A stretch of DNA of 40,980 bases, taken from UHGV virus genome UHGV-0233651, one strand, 5' to 3'. Under the pieces are notes generated by a model. The model was not told where the DNA came from. It did no database searches and saw only the letters and a program-made list of their open reading frames with translations. Each line of letters starts with the position of its first letter. The first letter of the stretch is position 1. This stretch comes from a virus. The translations under genes and the position numbers were made by a program. Below, in pieces: positions 29,182 through 40,204 of this stretch.

Positions 29182-29982
29182 ATGGCGAAAGGAGCTTTCC
29201 AGACAAGCAGAGAGATTTTTGAAAATCCTATATGGTCCGATGTCGTTAAGTTTCGAATATTTTTCTATATCTATGGAAATGCGGTCTTCGCCAATGAAGG
29301 AACGGACGTTGCAGGGATTCACATAAAGAGAGGTCAGTTTCTTAGATCGTACAGAAATCTGCAACAAGACCTTTCGTACATGGAAAAACGGGCTATAAAA
29401 ATGTACTCGTTACACACCATAAAAAACAAAATTGACCAACTTGTAAAGGAAAATCGAATTGAAATTGAACTCACCGATTACGGAACACTCTTTACAGTGG
29501 TTAATTACGAGGAATACCAAGGGTTTGAGCGATATTCAAAACCTTTATCGGAACAGCAACGAAACGGCAACGGAACAGCAAGTGAACAGCAACGGAACAA
29601 TAATAAGAATGTAAAGAATGATAAGAATGATAAGAATATAAAAGATAATGTCGCAACACGCAAAAAACGCGTGTATGCAGACGACGATCCTAATAAAAAA
29701 TTAGCCCATCTTTTATTAAAGCTCATTCGAAAAAATCAAAACATTAAAGATCCTGATCTGGATAAGTGGGCAAATGTCATTCGACTTACGATTGAAGCCG
29801 ATAAACATTCCGGAAAGGAAGTCCAAGAAATGATCGTATGGGCAACGCAACATAATTTTTGGTCAGGAGTGATTTTATCTCCTTCGAGTCTTAGGAAAAA
29901 TTGGGATAAGATGTCTGGTCAAAAAAATAAAAGATCAAATTCGCAACCACGCGAATGGAAAGAATCGGGTGATGATTTTTGA
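29182..29982 (+). CDS. replication initiation / replisome-organizer-like protein with an internal low-complexity linker
   Basis: It sits upstream of the DnaC-like loader. An iteron-like DNA repeat array lies inside the gene. RBS AGGTGGTGA is present. Confidence 0.55.
   Translation: MAKGAFQTSREIFENPIWSDVVKFRIFFYIYGNAVFANEGTDVAGIHIKRGQFLRSYRNLQQDLSYMEKRAIKMYSLHTIKNKIDQLVKENRIEIELTDYGTLFTVVNYEEYQGFERYSKPLSEQQRNGNGTASEQQRNNNKNVKNDKNDKNIKDNVATRKKRVYADDDPNKKLAHLLLKLIRKNQNIKDPDLDKWANVIRLTIEADKHSGKEVQEMIVWATQHNFWSGVILSPSSLRKNWDKMSGQKNKRSNSQPREWKESGDDF
29549..29640 (+). repeat. iteron-like direct repeat array (putative phage ori) inside the replication gene
   Basis: GAACAGCAA occurs three times and CAACGGAAC twice, interleaved. 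An AAGAATG(A/T) array follows four times. Downstream lies the palindrome ACACGC-A6-GCGTGT at 29656..29673. Confidence 0.5.
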
Positions 29983-35315: not shown

Positions 35316-35385
35316 AAAAGCCGGATTCCTCCGGCTGATACTAATTATTCGCATTTTTAGTATATCACAAGGGGGAATCGCGGTC

Positions 35386-35856
35386 ATGGCACTTTTTGAT
35401 GTTTCTAAATACGAAATGCCGGCTAAAGAAAATGTTGATATGGAGAGAACAAAATATAACGTGGGTGTCTTTTTAGGTGAATATTTGGCATCGAGAAGTA
35501 GAGTGGGACAACCGAGAGAACCCAAAATTACATCCAGTTTCTCCCTTGTGCCTCCTACTCATTCATCAGTGAATCATCCGGAAGCAGAGCAGTTACTTAT
35601 CCAAAATGAGACAGCTCAAGAAGAGTTTACCTACTTCCATAAATTATTTGTGCAAGGTTTTTCAGCAGTTCAACATCCATTTAAGCCGGATATAACTAAA
35701 CGCAGAAAACAAATTTTTTATGATAGATACATTCATGGTTACTCTGTTAATTTCACCGCAGAGCGTTGCCATGTTAGCGAAGAACTAGTTAAACAAGAAT
35801 CAAGCGTGATATTGATTCAGTTCGCCTCTGCATTGGAATTAGTAAGGTTCAAATAA
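35386..35856 (+). CDS. arpU: ArpU/RinA-family late transcriptional regulator
   Basis: The N-terminus MALFDVSKYEMPAKENVDMERTKYNVGVFLGEY...PREPKITSSFSLVPP matches ArpU-family hallmarks. The gene is upstream of the packaging genes. Confidence 0.7.
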   Translation: MALFDVSKYEMPAKENVDMERTKYNVGVFLGEYLASRSRVGQPREPKITSSFSLVPPTHSSVNHPEAEQLLIQNETAQEEFTYFHKLFVQGFSAVQHPFKPDITKRRKQIFYDRYIHGYSVNFTAERCHVSEELVKQESSVILIQFASALELVRFK

Positions 35857-35867
35857 TACACGTAAAC

Positions 35868-35911
35868 TACCCTTTTTATACCTCCTTTTTACCTGCTATC
35901 TACCTATTTTC
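35868..35911 (+). repeat. four direct TACC repeats phased at 11 bp, at 35868, 35879, 35890 and 35901
   Basis: The units are TACCctttttaTACCtcctttttTACCtgctatcTACCtattttc. Each TACC is followed by a T-rich track with a helical-turn period. The array lies directly downstream of arpU. Confidence 0.5.
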
Positions 35912-36013
35912 AGAGTTATTATGGTAGTGTCGAAAGATAAGGAAAGCGATCGACCAGCTAAATTAGATTACTCACAATAAAAATTAACTGGTCGATTAAA
36001 TCACGTGAAACTG

Positions 36014-36041
36014 GCAGCTCATTTATTGGGCTGCTTTTTTG
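36014..36041 (+). terminator. weak hairpin plus T6
   Basis: GCAGC-(11 nt)-GCTGC is followed by TTTTTTG. Confidence 0.35.
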
Positions 36042-36067
36042 ATTTTAATTAGAGAGGTTGATTTTAT

Positions 36068-36313
36068 GTGGAAAAGTACGGTGATAACTTTTGGTACATC
36101 ATTCTAAATGATAAACGACCAAAAAACAGAAATGTTATTTCGATTCAAATTAAAAAGAACTATTCAATAATTGAACTATCAACAGAAGCCGATCCCGATA
36201 TTATTGATCAATGCAAATTGATTTATCTAGGACAAGGCTTCTTTTTTGATCCTAAAATTCAAATAGAAATAGCAAAGCATGTGAGGAGAATAAATATAAA
36301 TGCGAATCGTTAA
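36068..36313 (+). CDS. hypothetical protein (81 aa)
   Basis: The GTG start follows GAGAGG. It lies immediately upstream of the ParB-MTase and overlaps it. Confidence 0.4.
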   Translation: MEKYGDNFWYIILNDKRPKNRNVISIQIKKNYSIIELSTEADPDIIDQCKLIYLGQGFFFDPKIQIEIAKHVRRININANR

Positions 36314-37565
36314 GATGAAATTATCTGATTTAAAACCAGCAGATTATAATCCGCGAATCGAACTCAAACCAGGGATGCCGGAATTTGAAAAACTATCGCG
36401 ATCTATTGAAGAGTTTGGATTTATTGATCCGCCAATTTTCAATGAGAGGACAGGCAATCTGATCGGAGGTCATCAGCGTGTCGCTGTGGCCTCATATCTT
36501 GGCAGCTACGACGAGATCGAAGTGTCTGTTGTAGATTTACCTCTAAAGAAAGAAAAAACTCTCAACGTTGCTCTCAATAAAATTTCTGGACGTTGGGATG
36601 AAGAGAAACTTGCAATACTATTAAAAGATATTGATTCTGACGTGACTTTGACAGGATTCGATGATGATGAAGTAGATAATTTGATTGCTGCTTATGATTA
36701 CAAAGAGGATATTGAAAAACCAATCGTAGAAGATGATTTCGATGTAAATCAGTTTGTTGAAGATCATCCTGAACCAAAAACGAAACTTGGCCAGCTTTGG
36801 AAACTGGGTGATCACTACCTATTATGTGGTGATGCGACAAAATCAGAAGACATCGACAAGTTACTGCAGGGGAAGAAAGCCGATCTTATTGTGACCGATC
36901 CGCCTTATAACGTAGCTGTTTCATCTGACAGCCAAGAACTGCAGGAATCTGGTCGCGCCAAGATAATGAATGACAATATGTCAGACAGTGATTTTGATGA
37001 TTTTCTTACTGCAGTATTTAATAACTATTCAGCATCGATGAATCCTAATGCTGCTATTTATGTTTTTCATGGTTCTTCTTATCAAAGAGAATTCGAAAAC
37101 GCAATGAACGCTGCTGATATCATGGTTCGGTCCCAATGTATTTGGGTGAAGAATAATGCAACCTTTGGGTGGAGCCAGTACCGTTGGCAGCATGAACCGG
37201 TCTTTTATGCATACAAGAAAAATGAAGCTCCAGCATGGTATGGAGACCGAAAACAAACAACGGTTTGGCAAGATGATCTGTTGGAAGATTTACCAGCGAC
37301 GGTATGGCGTATCAATCGGGATGATACGACAAAATACTATCATCCAACACAGAAGCCACTATCGTTAATTGCTATACCTGTTAGAAACAGTTCCAAAAGA
37401 AACGATGTTGTTTTGGATCTTTTTGGTGGTTCAGGAAGTACCTTAATGACTTGCGATCAATTGGAGCGTGTTTGTTTTACCCTTGAACTGGACCCAATCT
37501 TTTGTGACGTGATCATTGAACGTTGGGAACAAGCAACAGGGAAGAAAGCCGAATTAATTTCATAA
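36300..37565 (+). CDS. ParB-like nuclease domain fused to an N6-adenine/N4-cytosine DNA methyltransferase (beta-class, orphan)
   Basis: The N-terminus KLSDLKPADYNPRI...GGHQRV is ParB/Srx-like. Motif IV is IVTDPPYNV. The C-terminal motif I is LFGGSGST. Confidence 0.8.
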   Translation: MRIVKMKLSDLKPADYNPRIELKPGMPEFEKLSRSIEEFGFIDPPIFNERTGNLIGGHQRVAVASYLGSYDEIEVSVVDLPLKKEKTLNVALNKISGRWDEEKLAILLKDIDSDVTLTGFDDDEVDNLIAAYDYKEDIEKPIVEDDFDVNQFVEDHPEPKTKLGQLWKLGDHYLLCGDATKSEDIDKLLQGKKADLIVTDPPYNVAVSSDSQELQESGRAKIMNDNMSDSDFDDFLTAVFNNYSASMNPNAAIYVFHGSSYQREFENAMNAADIMVRSQCIWVKNNATFGWSQYRWQHEPVFYAYKKNEAPAWYGDRKQTTVWQDDLLEDLPATVWRINRDDTTKYYHPTQKPLSLIAIPVRNSSKRNDVVLDLFGGSGSTLMTCDQLERVCFTLELDPIFCDVIIERWEQATGKKAELIS

Positions 37566-37665: not shown

Positions 37666-37697
37666 AGCATTCTATCAAACGCGGGGTGCTTGTACAA

Positions 37698-37913
37698 ATG
37701 AAATTTGAAGGTATAAACGATGAGAACTTGGAATATGAAATAGAAAAAGCCATAGAGCAGGCAGAATCAATCGAGGAGTATAAAAAGATCATTCGTATCG
37801 CTCTTGGTAAATGGTTAAAGAACCTGCAATCAGGTGAAATTAAGCTAAACACTGTCAGCGATTTGAAGCTGCTGATTGAAGCGGACCTGATGCTTAAAGA
37901 TATTGAGAAATAG
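37698..37913 (+). CDS. hypothetical small protein upstream of terS
   Basis: ATG 37698 follows GGGGTG, whereas the track start at 37686 is a GTG. Confidence 0.4.
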   Translation: MKFEGINDENLEYEIEKAIEQAESIEEYKKIIRIALGKWLKNLQSGEIKLNTVSDLKLLIEADLMLKDIEK

Positions 37914-37959: not shown

Positions 37960-38796
37960 ATGGCTAGAAAAAGAGACTCAAGACGTGATCAAGCAAAGTT
38001 AATCTGGATTGATTCCAACGGCGAAAAGCTTTTAAAAGATATTGCAGCCGATCTTGGCGTTTCCGATTCTCAGATCAGAAAATGGAAATCAATAGATAAA
38101 TGGAGTGATGATTTGAAAAGTAACGTTACCAATGACAAAAGTAACGTTACCAATTCAATAGGTGCTCCAGTTGGGAATGAGAACGCTAAAGGGAACCGGG
38201 GAAATAGTCGTGCTTCGCCGCCAAAGGGAAATAAAAATGCATTAAAGACTGGCGAGTTTGAAACGATTTATTATGATCTGTTGAGTGATGATGAGAAGGC
38301 CATCTACTCAGCAGATTTTTCTCTCGCTGATCGTTTGAATCAAGATATTCAAGAATTGACCATGCGTAAGTATCGTATGATGAAACGTATTAAGAACGCC
38401 GAGAACGGTCTTGATCTCGTAGAATCTGAAAAGCTCTACGAACTTCGAGGTAGAAAACAATACGTTGATTCTGTCAAAGGTGGCAAAAAGATTTCTATTG
38501 AAGTGCCACAAGTCACTATGACTGAGATGAAAGAAAAGTCTATTCGAAAAATTGAAGACATACTTCGTATTGAGGATGCTTTGACTAGGATTAGTAATCA
38601 ATTGACCAGGACAATTAAGCAGCTAGAAGAAATCACTTTAAATGAAAAGCGCATGCAGGTCTTTGATGCTCAAATCAAAAAGCTAAAAGCTGAAACAAAT
38701 GAAATCGGTGGTGCTTCAAGCGGCGATGAGGTTAAAGATTGGAAACAAGCAGTAATCACTGCAGCAAACAAACGGGCGGTGAAAGAGGATGGGTAA
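37960..38796 (+). CDS. terS: terminase small subunit
   Basis: The N-terminal HTH is LLKDIAADLGVSDSQIRKWK. It lies directly upstream of, and overlaps, the large terminase gene. Confidence 0.65.
   Translation: MARKRDSRRDQAKLIWIDSNGEKLLKDIAADLGVSDSQIRKWKSIDKWSDDLKSNVTNDKSNVTNSIGAPVGNENAKGNRGNSRASPPKGNKNALKTGEFETIYYDLLSDDEKAIYSADFSLADRLNQDIQELTMRKYRMMKRIKNAENGLDLVESEKLYELRGRKQYVDSVKGGKKISIEVPQVTMTEMKEKSIRKIEDILRIEDALTRISNQLTRTIKQLEEITLNEKRMQVFDAQIKKLKAETNEIGGASSGDEVKDWKQAVITAANKRAVKEDG
38116..38154 (+). repeat. 21-bp tandem direct repeat AAAAGTAACGTTACCAAT (two copies), each containing the 10-bp palindrome GTAACGTTAC
   Basis: The two 18-nt copies are identical. The repeat lies inside terS, where it encodes SNVTNDKSNVTNS. 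Confidence 0.6.
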
Positions 38797-40204
38797 TGCA
38801 TTCGTTCCTTTTGCAGATATAGGGGCTGCAATAGATTATTACTACGATAAGCCTGTTGCATTTTGTGAGGATATCTTACATTTTGATCCTGATGAATGGC
38901 AGGAGGATGTCCTAGAAGATTTGGCTGAGTTCCCAAAAGTTTCAGTTAGATCCGGCCAAGGAGTGGGAAAAACAGCATTAGAAGCTGGGGCGATTTTATG
39001 GTTTCTAACCTGTAGACCTTATGCGAAAGTCATTGCTACCGCTCCGACAATGAAACAACTTTATGACGTTCTTTGGGCAGAGGTCGCAAAGTGGCTTAAT
39101 AATAGTTTAATCAAAGATTTATTGAAGTGGACTAAGACAAAAGTCTATATGGTCGGCGATTCTGAGCGATGGTTTGCTACTGCGCGTACAGCGACTAAGC
39201 CGGAGAATATGCAAGGATTTCACGAAGATCATATGTTTATTGTTGTAGATGAGGCCTCGGGGGTTTCCGATCAGATCATGGAAGCCATTCTGGGTACTTT
39301 ATCAGGCATGGACAATAAACTATTAATGTGTGGGAACCCAAACAACATAGAAGGTGTCTTCTATGATTCCCATAATTCTGATAGAGACAAATATCGAGTT
39401 CATAAAGTTTCTAGTTACGATAGTAAGCGTACAAACAAAGAAAATATAGAGATGATTATCACCAAGTATGGAAAAGATAGCGATGTAGCAAGAGTTCGTA
39501 TATTCGGGGAATTTCCTAAAGGTGCCCTAGATTCATTTATCAGCCTTGAAACGGTTGAGCTTGCAGTTGAAAGCAAAACCAATAATTCATCAGTCAATAA
39601 ATCGACTGTAGCTCACATAGGAGTCGATGTTGCTAGATACGGAGACGATTCAACGATTCTGTTTCCCAGAATTGCGACCAGAGCTTTAAAATATGAGAAA
39701 TATTCTAAGCGTAGCACGATGGAAACCACGGGTTATGTGATTAGTCTGGCAAAAAAATTGATTAGACAGTATCCCAATATCGATAAAGTTGTTATAAAAG
39801 TTGATGATACAGGCGTTGGTGGAGGTGTTACTGACAGATTAGAAGAATTGATTGAGGATAACAAGTACCCTTTTGAAGTTCATGGAGTTAATAATGGATC
39901 AGCATCAGAAGACGACTTTTACGATAATTTAGGTACTCAATTGTGGGGAAATATCAAAGAGATTTTAGAAGAAAATATGACGGCAAATCTCAATGGAGAA
40001 GAACCAGTTATTGAGTTGCCGAATGATAGTGCACTAATCAAAGAACTAAGTACTCGTAAATTCAAAATGACAAGTAGAAGTCGTATCCGCTTAGAAAGTA
40101 AAGACGATATGAAAAAAAGAAATATCGGAAGTCCGGATATAGCCGATGCGTTATCACTTGCATTCTACGAACCAGATACTAAATACAAGTTTATTGCTTA
40201 TTAG
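38789..40204 (+). CDS. terL: terminase large subunit (PBSX/SPP1-like)
   Basis: Walker A is SGQGVGKT. Walker B is FIVVDEASG. The C-terminus is a nuclease region. Confidence 0.85.
   Translation: MGNAFVPFADIGAAIDYYYDKPVAFCEDILHFDPDEWQEDVLEDLAEFPKVSVRSGQGVGKTALEAGAILWFLTCRPYAKVIATAPTMKQLYDVLWAEVAKWLNNSLIKDLLKWTKTKVYMVGDSERWFATARTATKPENMQGFHEDHMFIVVDEASGVSDQIMEAILGTLSGMDNKLLMCGNPNNIEGVFYDSHNSDRDKYRVHKVSSYDSKRTNKENIEMIITKYGKDSDVARVRIFGEFPKGALDSFISLETVELAVESKTNNSSVNKSTVAHIGVDVARYGDDSTILFPRIATRALKYEKYSKRSTMETTGYVISLAKKLIRQYPNIDKVVIKVDDTGVGGGVTDRLEELIEDNKYPFEVHGVNNGSASEDDFYDNLGTQLWGNIKEILEENMTANLNGEEPVIELPNDSALIKELSTRKFKMTSRSRIRLESKDDMKKRNIGSPDIADALSLAFYEPDTKYKFIAY

What the first reader, a model, noticed from the sequence alone, without database searches (positions are those of the whole stretch)
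35857..36067. Phased 11-bp TACC repeat array plus long inverted repeat directly after arpU: putative late-promoter / ArpU binding region
Four TACC cores sit at exactly 11-bp spacing, each followed by a T-tract. A near-perfect 12-bp inverted repeat follows (TCGACCAGCTAA … TTAACTGGTCGA, 35942..35993), then a short hairpin with a T-run. In TP901-1, the ArpU-family activator Alt binds four direct repeats upstream of the late promoter. Here the array lies between the activator gene and the block that leads to terS. The hairpin plus T6 within the probable leader could act as an attenuator.
Basis: partly seen in the sequence, partly recalled or inferred. Interest (0 to 1): 0.6.

Follow-up and report, generated by a model that had tools for sequence, protein, structure and literature searches.

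The report
ArpU-dependent phage late promoter region
The repeats just after the arpU gene are almost certainly the docking sites of the phage's late-gene activator, followed by a conserved core promoter and a structured leader ending in a terminator; this kind of element is already known from related phages, so the finding is correct but largely ordinary.

Summary
TACC occurs at 35868, 35879, 35890 and 35901, exactly 11 bp apart. A fifth unit (TACAC, 35857) starts right after the arpU stop codon. Shuffles of the window give 0.015 such period-11 arrays.

The upstream gene (35386-35856) is an ArpU-family late regulator with a sigma-region-4-like C-terminal domain. In 20+ Enterococcus, Vagococcus and Tetragenococcus relatives (55-68% identical ArpU), the stretch from stop codon to promoter keeps the 11-nt register with 4-8 units. 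Unit sequences differ between lineages, and copy number changes in exact 11-bp steps. Sixteen nt after the last unit starts an almost invariant box, TATTATG(A/G)TAGTGTC (35917-35931).

A near-identical box follows the experimentally validated binding repeats of phiFL2A-type ArpU (TTGGCGG x3) and of S. aureus 80alpha RinA (TGGCAG x2). Both of those arrays are also 11-bp phased.

This is therefore a new member of the known Ltr/ArpU late-promoter class (Quiles-Puchalt 2013).

The inverted repeat is an RNA hairpin in the predicted leader. It displays a conserved loop motif (GATTACTCACA). An intrinsic terminator follows, 25 nt before the first late gene. Late transcripts must presumably read through that terminator. 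How they do so is the only open and interesting point.

The parts
35386..35856 (+). arpU: late transcriptional regulator (156 aa), ArpU family, sigma-region-4-like C-terminal HTH
   Evidence: TIGR01637 scores 43.1 bits, exactly at its cutoff. phrog_248 'transcriptional activator' E 4.5e-23. Sigma70_r4 weak hit at residues 104-137. 95 homologue clusters, many named ArpU family by NCBI. AF2 model pLDDT 82; best PDB fold matches are the -35-binding domains of ECF sigmas SigL/SigD (prob 0.97-1.0, E 0.26-0.6).
35857..35911 (+). Five 11-bp phased direct-repeat units (TACACGTAAAC, TACCCTTTTTA, TACCTCCTTTT, TACCTGCTATC, TACCTATTTTC): predicted ArpU binding sites
   Evidence: Exact 11-bp spacing; 0.015 expected by chance. 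Self-identity at lag 11 is 0.59 here and 0.52 on average in 15 relatives, against about 0.27 at other lags. The register is conserved in all relatives. Copy-number variants differ by exact multiples of 11.
35913..35936 (+). Conserved core-promoter box GAGTTATTATGGTAGTGTCGAAAG. Candidate -10 is TATTAT at 35917-35922. Predicted transcription start is about G35929 (plausible range 35927-35937).
   Evidence: Single occurrence in the window; 0.03 expected. Positions TATTATGATAGTGTC are 80-99% conserved over 50 distinct cores from three activator groups. An identical 29-mer follows TTGGCGG repeats in phiFL2A-type loci. 80alpha has TATTATGATAGTGT. In Phi13, TTATTATAAT..GTGTAG is the experimentally mapped TATA box/TSS23. 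No -35-like hexamer is present, and the sigma-70 scan does not call this site.
35948..35997 (+).
   Evidence: -13.9 kcal/mol, and present in both MFE and centroid structures. Kept in L003/L023 and L005, with one compensatory A-U to G-C change and some mismatches.
35966..35976 (+). Conserved leader motif GATTACTCACA in the apical loop of hairpin 1
   Evidence: [CT]TACTCACA occurs once per locus, only 39-126 nt downstream of the box. It is found in the window and in 7 of 21 distinct relatives, and nowhere else in the 41-kb window. It sits in a hairpin loop with unrelated stems in L006, L011, L012 and L219. Function unknown.
36013..36040 (+). Intrinsic terminator: stem-loop 36013-36035 plus T6 at 36035-36040
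   Evidence: Terminator scan: 9 pairs, 5 G-C, loop of 5. -13.8 kcal/mol. Identical in L005, where the downstream genes differ. A related terminator follows the box in L192.
36068..36313 (+). First gene after the leader (orf81, phrog_1202); RBS GAGAGG at 36052-36057
   Evidence: phrog_1202 E 9e-20. Only 25 nt separate the terminator T-run from the start codon.
36300..37565 (+). ParB-like nuclease domain / N6-N4 DNA methyltransferase fusion gene
   Evidence: PF01555 E 4e-28; phrog_498 E 2e-164.
37960..40204 (+). terS (37960-38796) and terL (38789-40204): start of the packaging/morphogenesis operon served by the promoter
   Evidence: NF040601 TerS 221.7 bits. PF10668. ORF map.

Best explanation
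The interval 35857-36067 is the ArpU-dependent late promoter of an Enterococcus prophage (the ArpU protein is 100% identical to one encoded in E. avium ATCC 14025), together with its leader.

ArpU is made at the end of the early operon. Through its sigma-region-4-like helix-turn-helix, it is predicted to bind as several protomers to five direct-repeat units spaced one helical turn (11 bp) apart. All units therefore lie on one face of the DNA, and phased T-tracts probably curve it.

The array is positioned at a fixed distance from a generic core element. The last unit starts 16 nt before TATTAT. The core (TTATTATGGTAGTGTC) has a good -10 hexamer but no -35. ArpU therefore supplies the upstream contact that RNA polymerase lacks, and transcription starts at about 35929.

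The transcript begins with a structured leader. Hairpin 1 displays a conserved loop motif. An intrinsic terminator follows, which insulates the late genes from early-operon read-through.

ArpU-dependent transcripts must pass this terminator to express orf81, the ParB-methyltransferase, terS, terL and the genes beyond.

What is shown here: the anatomy, its conservation, its modular inheritance with the activator gene, and the fold class of ArpU. What is inferred: binding, the start site, and how the terminator is passed.
For: **Gene identity**
- ArpU family and sigma-4-like fold.

**Array is non-random and under selection**
- 0.015 arrays expected by chance.
- All 15 distinct relatives tested peak at lag 11.
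- Every relative lays out the stop-codon-to-box interval in the same 11-nt register with 4-8 units.
- Stop-to-box lengths of 57, 68, 79 and 90 nt within one lineage differ by exact unit lengths.

**Repeats travel with the activator; the core is generic**
- Four unit types track ArpU lineages: TAC[AC]C; TCGGG plus TACTGA; TGTCT plus TACCT; TACAC plus TAACC.
- A K-to-S change in the predicted recognition helix tracks one of these types.
- L004 and L005 keep array and box but have different downstream DNA.
- phiFL2A-type ArpU has no BLASTP similarity to the window protein. Its TTGGCGG x3 repeats, also 11-bp spaced, are joined in some phages to the window's exact box.
- 80alpha RinA has TGGCAG x2 at 11 bp in the same register, plus TATTATGATAGTGT.
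- Brochothrix NF5/BL3 have CGGAG x3 at 11 bp plus TAAAATGGTAGT.

**Experimental precedent**
- phiFL2A ArpU binds its three repeats. Mutating them abolishes binding and activation. The repeat block transfers specificity when fused to unrelated downstream DNA (PMC3753634).
- In Phi13, the Ltr-dependent TSS23 and its essential TATA box lie directly after the repeats (PMC13123087). The sequence there is TTATTATAAT..GTGTAG.

**Leader**
- The two hairpins give z = -4.4.
- phiFL2A, L007 and L012 have long stems that begin exactly at the 3' edge of the box, as expected for a 5'-terminal stabilising hairpin.
- Hairpin+T-run elements occur within 300 nt of the box in 22 of 26 distinct loci by a loose scan. 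Density is 4.5 per kb, against 1.3 per kb in upstream same-strand sequence.
- Reporter data show that a terminator in this interval blocks read-through in phiFL2A and 80alpha.
Against: - There are no experimental data for this phage or for this ArpU subfamily.
- The TIGR01637 score is exactly at threshold.
- The start site is inferred. Three overlapping -10-like hexamers (TATTAT, TATGGT, TGnTAGTGT) leave it uncertain by about 8 nt.
- With the start at 35929, the last unit sits at -28 to -18, inside the spacer. That is unusual for a classical activator.
- The only 5'-end mapping for the RinA family (phi11/80alpha) placed the late start 23-24 nt before terS. That is downstream of the terminator and more than 155 bp from the RinA-binding sequences, which conflicts with a promoter at the box.
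- Leader terminators are frequent but not universal. L014 goes from box to RBS directly, and by strict criteria only about half of loci have a compact one.
- Fold-search E-values are weak (0.26 or higher).
Confidence: 0.8

Rival explanations
1. ArpU binds the repeats, but the functional late promoter lies downstream of the terminator, as the published RinA model has it. On this view the conserved box is only part of the activator-binding block, and ArpU acts at a distance.
For: RACE in phi11 and 80alpha put the rinA-dependent 5' end 23-24 nt upstream of terS. The 80alpha RNA was treated to remove 5'-monophosphate ends. In 80alpha this point (L027:1384) lies just after the terminator.
Against: - In the window, only 25 nt separate the terminator T-run from the orf81 start. 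No promoter-like site is called on the + strand between 35857 and 36143.
- The 80alpha 5' end has no convincing -10.
- The box is kept at a fixed phase from the repeats across activator families whose downstream DNA is unrelated.
- In Phi13, the Ltr-dependent TSS and its essential TATA box are adjacent to the repeats.
- Repeat blocks remain functional when fused to foreign intergenic DNA.
Confidence: 0.1
2. ArpU works as a sigma-like specificity factor rather than a classical activator. Its sigma-4-like domain would read the promoter-proximal unit (TACCTA, 35901-35906) as a -35 element. RNA polymerase would use the extended -10 TGnTAGTGT (35922-35930, 18-bp spacer) and start near 35937. The upstream units would serve only as a loading platform.
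For: - Fold matches are to the -35-binding domain of ECF sigma factors, and weak sigma70-ECF profile hits occur in relatives.
- The geometry of TACCTA-18 bp-TAGTGT with an upstream TG fits a sigma-70-type promoter.
- TANNNT is kept in TAGTGT/TATTGT.
Against: - No sigma-2-like domain was detected; the N-terminal half is a long helical hairpin.
- In RinA and phiFL2A-type promoters there is no repeat unit at that position. Their proximal unit is 11 bp further upstream.
- In Phi13 the mapped TATA box corresponds to the TATTAT/TATAAT position.
Confidence: 0.08
3. The phased repeats are not transcriptional. Instead they would be a packaging (pac/TerS) recognition site or replication iterons.
For: TerS and initiator proteins also bind phased direct repeats. 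The array lies upstream of the packaging genes.
Against: - The array is 2.1 kb from terS and abuts the arpU stop codon in every relative.
- The repeat type follows the activator lineage, while the downstream modules vary.
- An orphan array persists together with the last 40 nt of a replaced arpU gene in L029/L068.
- Homologous repeats in phiFL2A are bound by ArpU.
Confidence: 0.02

Closest known systems
ArpU / terS promoter of Enterococcus faecalis phage phiFL2A (Ltr family I; Quiles-Puchalt et al. 2013, PMC3753634)
   Same: - An ArpU-family gene at the end of the early region.
- Direct repeats immediately distal to its stop codon, with 11-bp spacing (TTGGCGG at L010:14031, 14042 and 14053).
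- A -10-like core ending in TCGAAAG. Some phiFL2A-type phages carry the window's exact box.
- A structured leader containing a terminator.
- ArpU binding and repeat-dependent activation were shown experimentally in that phage.
   Different: - The proteins share no BLASTP-detectable similarity. phiFL2A ArpU scores 131 bits on TIGR01637; the window protein scores 43.
- Repeat sequence differs (TAC[AC]C versus TTGGCGG).
- Five units rather than three, with an extra unit one turn closer to the -10.
- The phiFL2A leader is about 730 nt and carries a tRNA gene; the window's is about 140 nt.
RinA late promoter of S. aureus phages 80alpha/phi11 (Ferrer et al. 2011, PMC3152322)
   Same: - Two TGGCAG repeats 11 bp apart, right after rinA and in the same register.
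- The identical 14-mer TATTATGATAGTGT.
- A hairpin+T6 terminator before terS.
- The activator has the conserved Ltr C-terminal domain.
   Different: - Different activator family and host genus.
- The published 5' end maps downstream of the terminator, 24 nt before terS.
- terS follows the leader directly; in the window, three genes intervene.
Phi13 Ltr (LtrC family) and promoter P23 (PMC13123087, 2026)
   Same: - Repeats at the 3' end of, or just after, the ltr gene.
- Essential TATA box TTATTATAAT and a TSS in GTGTAG directly after the repeats.
- A hairpin+T-run in the leader.
   Different: - Repeats are 18 bp long and lie partly inside the coding sequence.
- Different protein family.
Alt / P_late of Lactococcus phage TP901-1 (Brondsted 2001; Pedersen 2006, as cited)
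   Same: - An activator gene upstream of terS.
- Four imperfect direct repeats at -76 to -32.
- In the sequence, CACGAAA recurs at 11 bp, and a TATTATG -10-like element follows.
- With a start at 35929, the window array spans -72 to -18.
   Different: - Alt is not an ArpU-family protein by profile or BLASTP.
- The TP901-1 leader carries tRNA genes.
Lambda Q / PR' / tR' late control
   Same: - A regulator binding at the promoter.
- A short leader ending in an intrinsic terminator that precedes all late genes.
- This is a functional analogy only.
   Different: - PR' is constitutive and Q is an antiterminator unrelated in sequence or fold.
- No sigma-dependent pause element has been identified here.
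- Ltr-family promoter regions were silent without the activator in published reporters.

Membership tests
Ltr/ArpU-type late promoter (activator-binding direct repeats distal to the ltr gene) | The gene immediately upstream encodes an ArpU-family (Ltr superfamily) protein of about 130-160 aa | tested here: met
   TIGR01637 43.1 bits, at its cutoff. phrog_248 E 4.5e-23. Homologues are named ArpU family by NCBI. Sigma-4-like C-terminal domain.
Ltr/ArpU-type late promoter (activator-binding direct repeats distal to the ltr gene) | Two or more direct repeats beginning immediately after (or at) the ltr stop codon | tested here: met
   Five units at 35857-35911; the first starts 1 nt after the stop codon.
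Ltr/ArpU-type late promoter (activator-binding direct repeats distal to the ltr gene) | Repeat sequence is specific to the activator allele, while the downstream region is interchangeable | tested here: met
   Four repeat types track ArpU lineages. The same repeats occur with different leaders. The same box occurs with different repeats.
Ltr/ArpU-type late promoter (activator-binding direct repeats distal to the ltr gene) | Located upstream of, and co-oriented with, terS/terL and the morphogenesis genes | tested here: met
   terS at 37960 and terL at 38789 on the same strand. Three small or accessory genes intervene.
Ltr/ArpU-type late promoter (activator-binding direct repeats distal to the ltr gene) | A transcription terminator lies in the ltr-terS intergenic region | tested here: met
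   Predicted intrinsic terminator at 36013-36040. Its function was not assayed.
Ltr/ArpU-type late promoter (activator-binding direct repeats distal to the ltr gene) | The activator binds the repeats, and late transcription depends on both activator and repeats | not testable with these tools
   Shown only for phiFL2A, phi55, phi29/80alpha and Phi13 in the literature.
TP901-1 Alt system | The activator is an Alt homologue | tested here: not met
   BLASTP of window ArpU against Alt gives E = 0.83. Alt has no TIGR01637 hit.
TP901-1 Alt system | Several direct repeats spanning about -76 to -32 of the late start | tested here: inconclusive
   The array would span -72 to -18 if the start is at 35929, but the start is inferred and not mapped.
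Q-type promoter-proximal antitermination | A terminator lies between the regulated promoter and all late genes | tested here: met
   Terminator at 36013-36040 lies between the box and orf81. Such hairpins are frequent in relatives.
Q-type promoter-proximal antitermination | The promoter is active without the regulator, and the regulator makes RNA polymerase terminator-resistant | not testable with these tools
   Published downstream reporters cannot separate activation from antitermination. No sequence or fold similarity to Q was seen.
Known structured RNA families (Rfam) for the leader | Match to a curated covariance model | tested here: not met
   No hit at gathering score in the window or in 18 related loci other than tRNAs. 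Only chance-level hits appear at E<=10.

The most novel reading that the evidence does not exclude
Late promoters governed by ArpU, RinA and LtrC would share one design:
- phased, activator-specific sites;
- a generic core, TTATTAT(R)(R)TAGTGT;
- a leader with an intrinsic terminator that fully stops ordinary transcripts.

On this reading, polymerase that initiates at this core with the sigma-4-like activator becomes terminator-resistant, a Q-like, promoter-loaded antitermination in Gram-positive phages. The conserved loop motif GAYTACTCACA might serve as a cis element.

This would also explain the 2011 puzzle that RinA needs sequences more than 155 bp upstream of the mapped 5' end. It would also fit the natural tandem arrangement in L029/L068, where transcripts from the cognate promoter have two leader terminator-like hairpins ahead of them (what lies beyond the second was not examined).
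Probability: 0.2. Interest if true: 0.75.

Novelty: new member of a known kind. Interest (0 to 1): 0.42.

Why it matters
For annotation, this pins down the single late promoter of the prophage and the switch that commits it to packaging and lysis. ArpU/RinA-type regulators control phage-mediated transfer of virulence and resistance genes in Enterococcus and Staphylococcus.

The comparative picture adds three simple rules that were not found stated in the passages read from the three Ltr papers (a few sections and keyword hits; supplementary figures not examined):
- an 11-bp register;
- a fixed offset from the array to the core;
- a generic core box shared by ArpU and RinA promoters in different genera, with a related form in LtrC.

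These rules allow late promoters and activator specificities to be predicted from sequence alone.

The comparison also sharpens an unresolved mechanistic question: how Ltr-dependent transcripts get past the terminator that sits between promoter and late genes. That question now has a concrete, cheap experiment.

Tried and rejected
- **Rfam.** Gathering-score search on the window and on 18 related loci, and an E<=10 search on 35800-36320, found no RNA family for the leader, only tRNAs in relatives.
- **Profile search against PDB sequences.** Nothing meaningful was found.
- **Cis-acting antiterminator.** I looked for alternative pairing between hairpin 1 and the terminator. Folding from the predicted start or from inside arpU gives the same two hairpins. 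By eye, only a 4-bp alternative (CCAG/CUGG) exists. Rejected.
- **Minus-strand promoter.** A minus-strand promoter-like hit (TCGACA-16-GAAAAT, 35933 to 35906) overlaps the box. The box's GTGTCAA reads as TTGACA on the other strand in some relatives. However, the corresponding -10 falls in the non-conserved tail of the last unit, and the number of such hits equals the chance expectation. Rejected.
- **Strict terminator count.** A first count using gapless stems and 'first ORF of 60 aa or more' was spoiled by spurious ORFs. It was replaced by an RNAfold-based scan with a same-strand background, which is loose and includes some poor hairpins.
- **ECF-type geometry.** TACC as -35 and GTC as -10 would need a 23-nt spacer, which is too long. 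Rejected.
- **Literature not reachable.** The TP901-1 primary paper (PMC93353) is not held. The Listeria LlgA paper has no promoter-level data. A search for later TSS or terminator work on rinA/terS found nothing relevant.
- **Diversity of fetched loci.** Single-protein locus searches for phiFL2A ArpU and 80alpha RinA returned mostly near-identical loci, so diversity within those two groups is limited.
Full report
**1. What is in the sequence**

The ORF at 35386-35856 (+) ends with TAA at 35854-35856. Directly after it lie five 11-nt units:

| Unit | Start | Sequence |
|---|---|---|
| 1 | 35857 | TACACGTAAAC |
| 2 | 35868 | TACCCTTTTTA |
| 3 | 35879 | TACCTCCTTTT |
| 4 | 35890 | TACCTGCTATC |
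| 5 | 35901 | TACCTATTTTC |

Any non-homopolymeric 4-mer recurring four times at one period of 9-13 bp is expected 0.05 times per dinucleotide-shuffled window, and 0.015 times for period 11.

The features downstream of the array are:
- GAGTTATTATGGTAGTGTCGAAAG at 35913-35936;
- an inverted repeat with arms at 35949-35969 and 35976-35996, whose 12-nt cores lie at 35950-35961 and 35984-35995 (11/12 complementary);
- a hairpin at 36013-36035 followed by T6 at 36035-40;
- 25 nt further on, the start of orf81 (36068-36313, phrog_1202, E 9e-20).

Further downstream on the same strand are a ParB-domain/DNA-methyltransferase gene (36300-37565), orf75 (37686-37913), terS (37960-38796) and terL (38789-40204).

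**2. The gene upstream**

- The 156-aa product reaches TIGR01637 (ArpU family phage packaging/lysis transcriptional regulator) at 43.1 bits, exactly the curated cutoff.
- It matches phrog_248 'transcriptional activator' at E 4.5e-23.
- It has a weak Sigma70_r4 hit at residues 104-137.
- It has 95 homologue clusters at 46-100% identity, many named 'ArpU family' by NCBI, from Enterococcus and Vagococcus.
- An identical protein is encoded in Enterococcus avium ATCC 14025 (L023).
- An AlphaFold2 model (pLDDT 82) shows a long N-terminal helical hairpin and a C-terminal three-helix bundle.
- The best PDB matches for that bundle are the -35-binding region-4 domains of ECF sigma factors SigL and SigD. 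Probabilities are 0.97-1.0 and TM-scores relative to the target are 0.6-0.7, but E-values are only 0.26-0.6.

**3. Comparative evidence for the array**

I collected relatives from IMG/VR, GTDB genomes and GenBank phages. They come from Enterococcus, Vagococcus and Tetragenococcus, and most have ArpU only 55-68% identical to the window protein.

I anchored each locus on TATTATG and cut the upstream sequence into 11-mers. In every locus, the interval from just after the stop codon to the box is laid out in the same register with 4-8 units. The promoter-proximal unit starts 16 nt before TATTATG.

Self-identity at lag 11 averages 0.52 (0.45 at lag 22), against about 0.27 at other lags. It is the maximum in all 15 loci tested.

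Within one lineage the stop-to-box distance is 57, 68, 79 or 90 nt. These values differ by exact multiples of 11.

Unit sequences fall into four types:
- A: TAC[AC]C (the window, EH-TP1 and many E. faecalis-type UViGs);
- B: two or more TCGG(G) units followed by TACTGA/TGCTGA units;
- C: TGTCT/TAGCT followed by TACCT;
- D: TACAC followed by TAACC.

In an alignment of the ArpU proteins, only three columns separate type B from the rest. One of them lies in the predicted recognition helix (SEELVKQES versus SEDLVSQES). This fits a change of specificity, although shared ancestry is a confound.

**4. The box is a generic core shared across activator families**

The 20-mer TTATTATGRTAKTGTCRAAA occurs once in the window, with 0.03 expected.

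Over 50 distinct cores from three groups of loci, positions TATTATGATAGTGTC are 80-99% conserved, while the flanks are not. The cross-family comparisons are:

- **phiFL2A.** This phage carries the experimentally characterised Enterococcus ArpU, which has no BLASTP similarity to the window protein. Its three 7-nt repeats, TTGGCGG, start at L010:14031, 14042 and 14053, so they too are 11 bp apart.
- **phiFL2A-type loci.** These occur with two different cores. One is TAATATAGTAATATCGAAAG. The other is the window's own GTTATTATGGTAGTGTCGAAAGATAAGGA.
- **S. aureus 80alpha.** The sequence after rinA reads AATTGGCAGTAAAGTGGCAGTTTTTGATACCTAAAATGAGA-TATTATGATAGTGT-AGG. It has two TGGCAG repeats 11 bp apart in the same register, and the same 14-mer as the Enterococcus loci.
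- **Brochothrix phages NF5 and BL3.** Their ArpU-like protein is 24% identical. They have CGGAG x3 at 11 bp followed by GATAAAATGGTAGTAAG.
- **TP901-1.** It shows CACGAAA at 11 bp and then GTATTATGAAGT.
- **Phi13 (LtrC family).** Its 18-bp repeats are followed by TTTATTATAATTGCTGTGTAGC.

The repeats therefore form the specificity module and are inherited with the activator gene. The box is a common core element.

Mosaic junctions support this. L004 diverges from the window right after the box, and L005 diverges right after the terminator. In L029 and L068, a phiFL2A-type arpU with its own promoter has replaced a window-type arpU. The last ~40 nt of the replaced gene remain, together with its orphan TACAC array, box and leader.

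**5. Published experiments that bear on function**

Quiles-Puchalt et al. 2013 (PMC3753634) showed the following:
- phiFL2A arpU is required for late mRNA, particles and lysis;
- ArpU is the only phage protein needed to activate a terS reporter;
- the three repeats are required;
- purified ArpU shifts the fragment, and the shift is lost when two or more repeats are mutated;
- repeat blocks from 80alpha or phi55 confer cognate activation when fused to unrelated phiFL2A intergenic DNA;
- without the Ltr protein, no read-through from an upstream Pcad promoter reaches the reporter, so a terminator lies in the interval.

Their 59-nt '80alpha RinA binding block' ends at ...TATTATGATAGTGTAGGA. It therefore contains the box (my count).

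For Phi13, TSS23 lies just after the repeats. A TATA box at -15 to -5 is essential, and the repeats span -107 to -42 (PMC13123087). On the sequence, this puts the -10 at TATAAT/TATTAT and the start at the G of GTGTAG.

By the same geometry, the window's -10 is TATTAT (35917-35922) and the start is about G35929. The units would then start at -72, -61, -50, -39 and -28.

No -35-like hexamer is present. The best candidate matches 3/6, and the sigma-70 scan does not call the site. This is as expected for an activator-dependent promoter.

An alternative reading uses the extended -10 TGnTAGTGT, with unit 5 serving as the -35 and a start near 35937. I cannot exclude this.

The one conflicting datum is the RACE mapping in phi11 and 80alpha, 23-24 nt before terS. 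That position is downstream of the terminator and more than 155 bp from the RinA-dependent sequences. The authors themselves called this puzzling.

**6. The leader**

RNA from 35929 to 36045 folds into two hairpins, with z = -4.4 and 0 of 200 shuffles folding as well:
- hairpin 1, 35948-35997 (-13.9 kcal/mol);
- the terminator, 36013-36035 (-13.8 kcal/mol) plus U6.

The same two hairpins form when folding starts inside arpU, so I see no 5'-end-dependent alternative structure. No Rfam family matches.

Hairpin 1 is kept in L003/L023 and L005, with one compensatory A-U to G-C change but also mismatches. Three sequences are too few for a covariation test.

The apical loop of hairpin 1 carries GATTACTCACA (35966-35976). 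The 9-mer [CT]TACTCACA occurs exactly once per locus, always 39-126 nt after the box. It is present in the window and in 7 of 21 distinct relatives, and it occurs nowhere else in the 41-kb window. In L006, L011 (variant ACACTCACA), L012 and L219 it again sits in a hairpin loop, closed by unrelated stems. In L237 it is inverted within a long perfect palindrome. It is a real conserved leader element of unknown function.

In phiFL2A, L007 and L012, long stems start exactly at the 3' edge of the box. This fits a 5'-terminal stabilising stem at the start of the transcript.

Hairpin+T-run elements lie within 300 nt of the box in 22 of 26 distinct loci by a loose RNAfold-based scan. The density is 4.5 per kb, against 1.3 per kb in upstream same-strand sequence. 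About half of them are compact, canonical terminators, including those of 80alpha and Phi13. L014 has none before its first gene.

**7. How it most likely works**

- Shown: the anatomy, its conservation and its modularity.
- Inferred from homologous experiments: ArpU protomers occupy the phased units on one DNA face and recruit or complete RNA polymerase at a core that has a -10 but no -35.
- Inferred from position: transcripts start at about 35929 and carry the leader.

The terminator most simply serves to end the early operon. There is no room for a terminator between arpU and its own target sites, so it lies downstream of the late promoter. Late transcripts must therefore pass it.

There are three ways this could happen, and none is decided by any data I could find:
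- terminator-resistant polymerase (Q-like);
- a leaky terminator overcome by a strong promoter;
- a second start beyond the terminator.

The tandem arrangement in L029/L068 places two leader terminator-like hairpins in the path of transcripts from the cognate promoter. That mildly favours an active mechanism.

**8. Verdict**

The element is a new member, with a new repeat specificity and five units, of the known Ltr/ArpU late-promoter class.

What goes modestly beyond the passages of the literature I read:
- the universal 11-bp register;
- the fixed offset from array to core;
- the cross-family core box;
- the recurrent leader terminator;
- the loop motif.

Noticed in passing
window 29556-29640 (inside ORF 29182-29982, +): Two adjacent tandem arrays lie here: 4 x 11 bp (GCAACGAAACG, GCAACGGAACA, GCAAGTGAACA, GCAACGGAACA) and 4 x 9 bp (AAGAATGTA, AAGAATGAT x2, AAGAATATA). 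Apart from the ArpU array, these are the only phased 4-copy arrays in the window. They sit inside a 266-aa ORF with no Pfam family, and may be origin iterons.
   Followed up: partly
window 35319-35336: A G+C-rich hairpin (AGCCGGAGGAATCCGGCT) lies between the DUF6877 gene and arpU. Its T-run is on the minus strand, with an A-run on the plus strand. It is called as a minus-strand terminator although all neighbouring genes are on the plus strand. It might modulate entry of early transcription into arpU.
   Followed up: no
window 36029-36048 and 36236-36255: The 3' half of the leader terminator plus its tail (GGCTGCTTTTTTGATTTTAA) recurs at 85% identity inside orf81. This may be a trace of a recombination junction (family D1).
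   Followed up: no
window 35966-35976; L002, L005, L006, L012, L013, L219, L237: The leader motif GA(C/T)TACTCACA occurs once per locus, only 39-126 nt after the promoter box, and usually in a hairpin loop with unrelated stems. In L237 it is inverted inside a perfect 27-bp-arm palindrome. No known RNA family matches it.
   Followed up: partly
L027 (80alpha) 1222-1410: The 80alpha rinA-terS region has the same 14-mer box (TATTATGATAGTGT) 27 nt after the start of its promoter-proximal TGGCAG repeat. The published late 5' end (24 nt before terS) falls just after the terminator hairpin and has no clear -10. This bears on the unexplained '>155 bp' distance reported in 2011.
   Followed up: partly
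L029 1640-2560 and L068: These loci carry tandem late promoters. A phiFL2A-type arpU comes first, with its TTGGCGG promoter, leader, terminator and a small ORF. It is followed by the last ~40 nt of a window-type arpU with an orphan TACAC array, box, leader and a second terminator. This is a footprint of activator-module replacement.
   Followed up: yes
L002 4678-4752; L007 3268-3339; L010 14629-14703; L025 2135-2376: tRNA genes sit in the late leader, between the activator-dependent promoter and terS, in EH-TP1 (Lys), an E. faecalis-type UViG (Trp), phiFL2A (Arg) and TP901-1 (Lys, Ala). The window has none.
   Followed up: no
L270 1372-1450; L271 1336-1415; L269: Brochothrix phages NF5 and BL3 show CGGAG x3 at 11-bp spacing right after their ArpU-like gene, followed by a TAAAATGGTAGT core. 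In Listeria phage B054, the homologous activator is followed directly by an anti-repressor gene with no array.
   Followed up: partly
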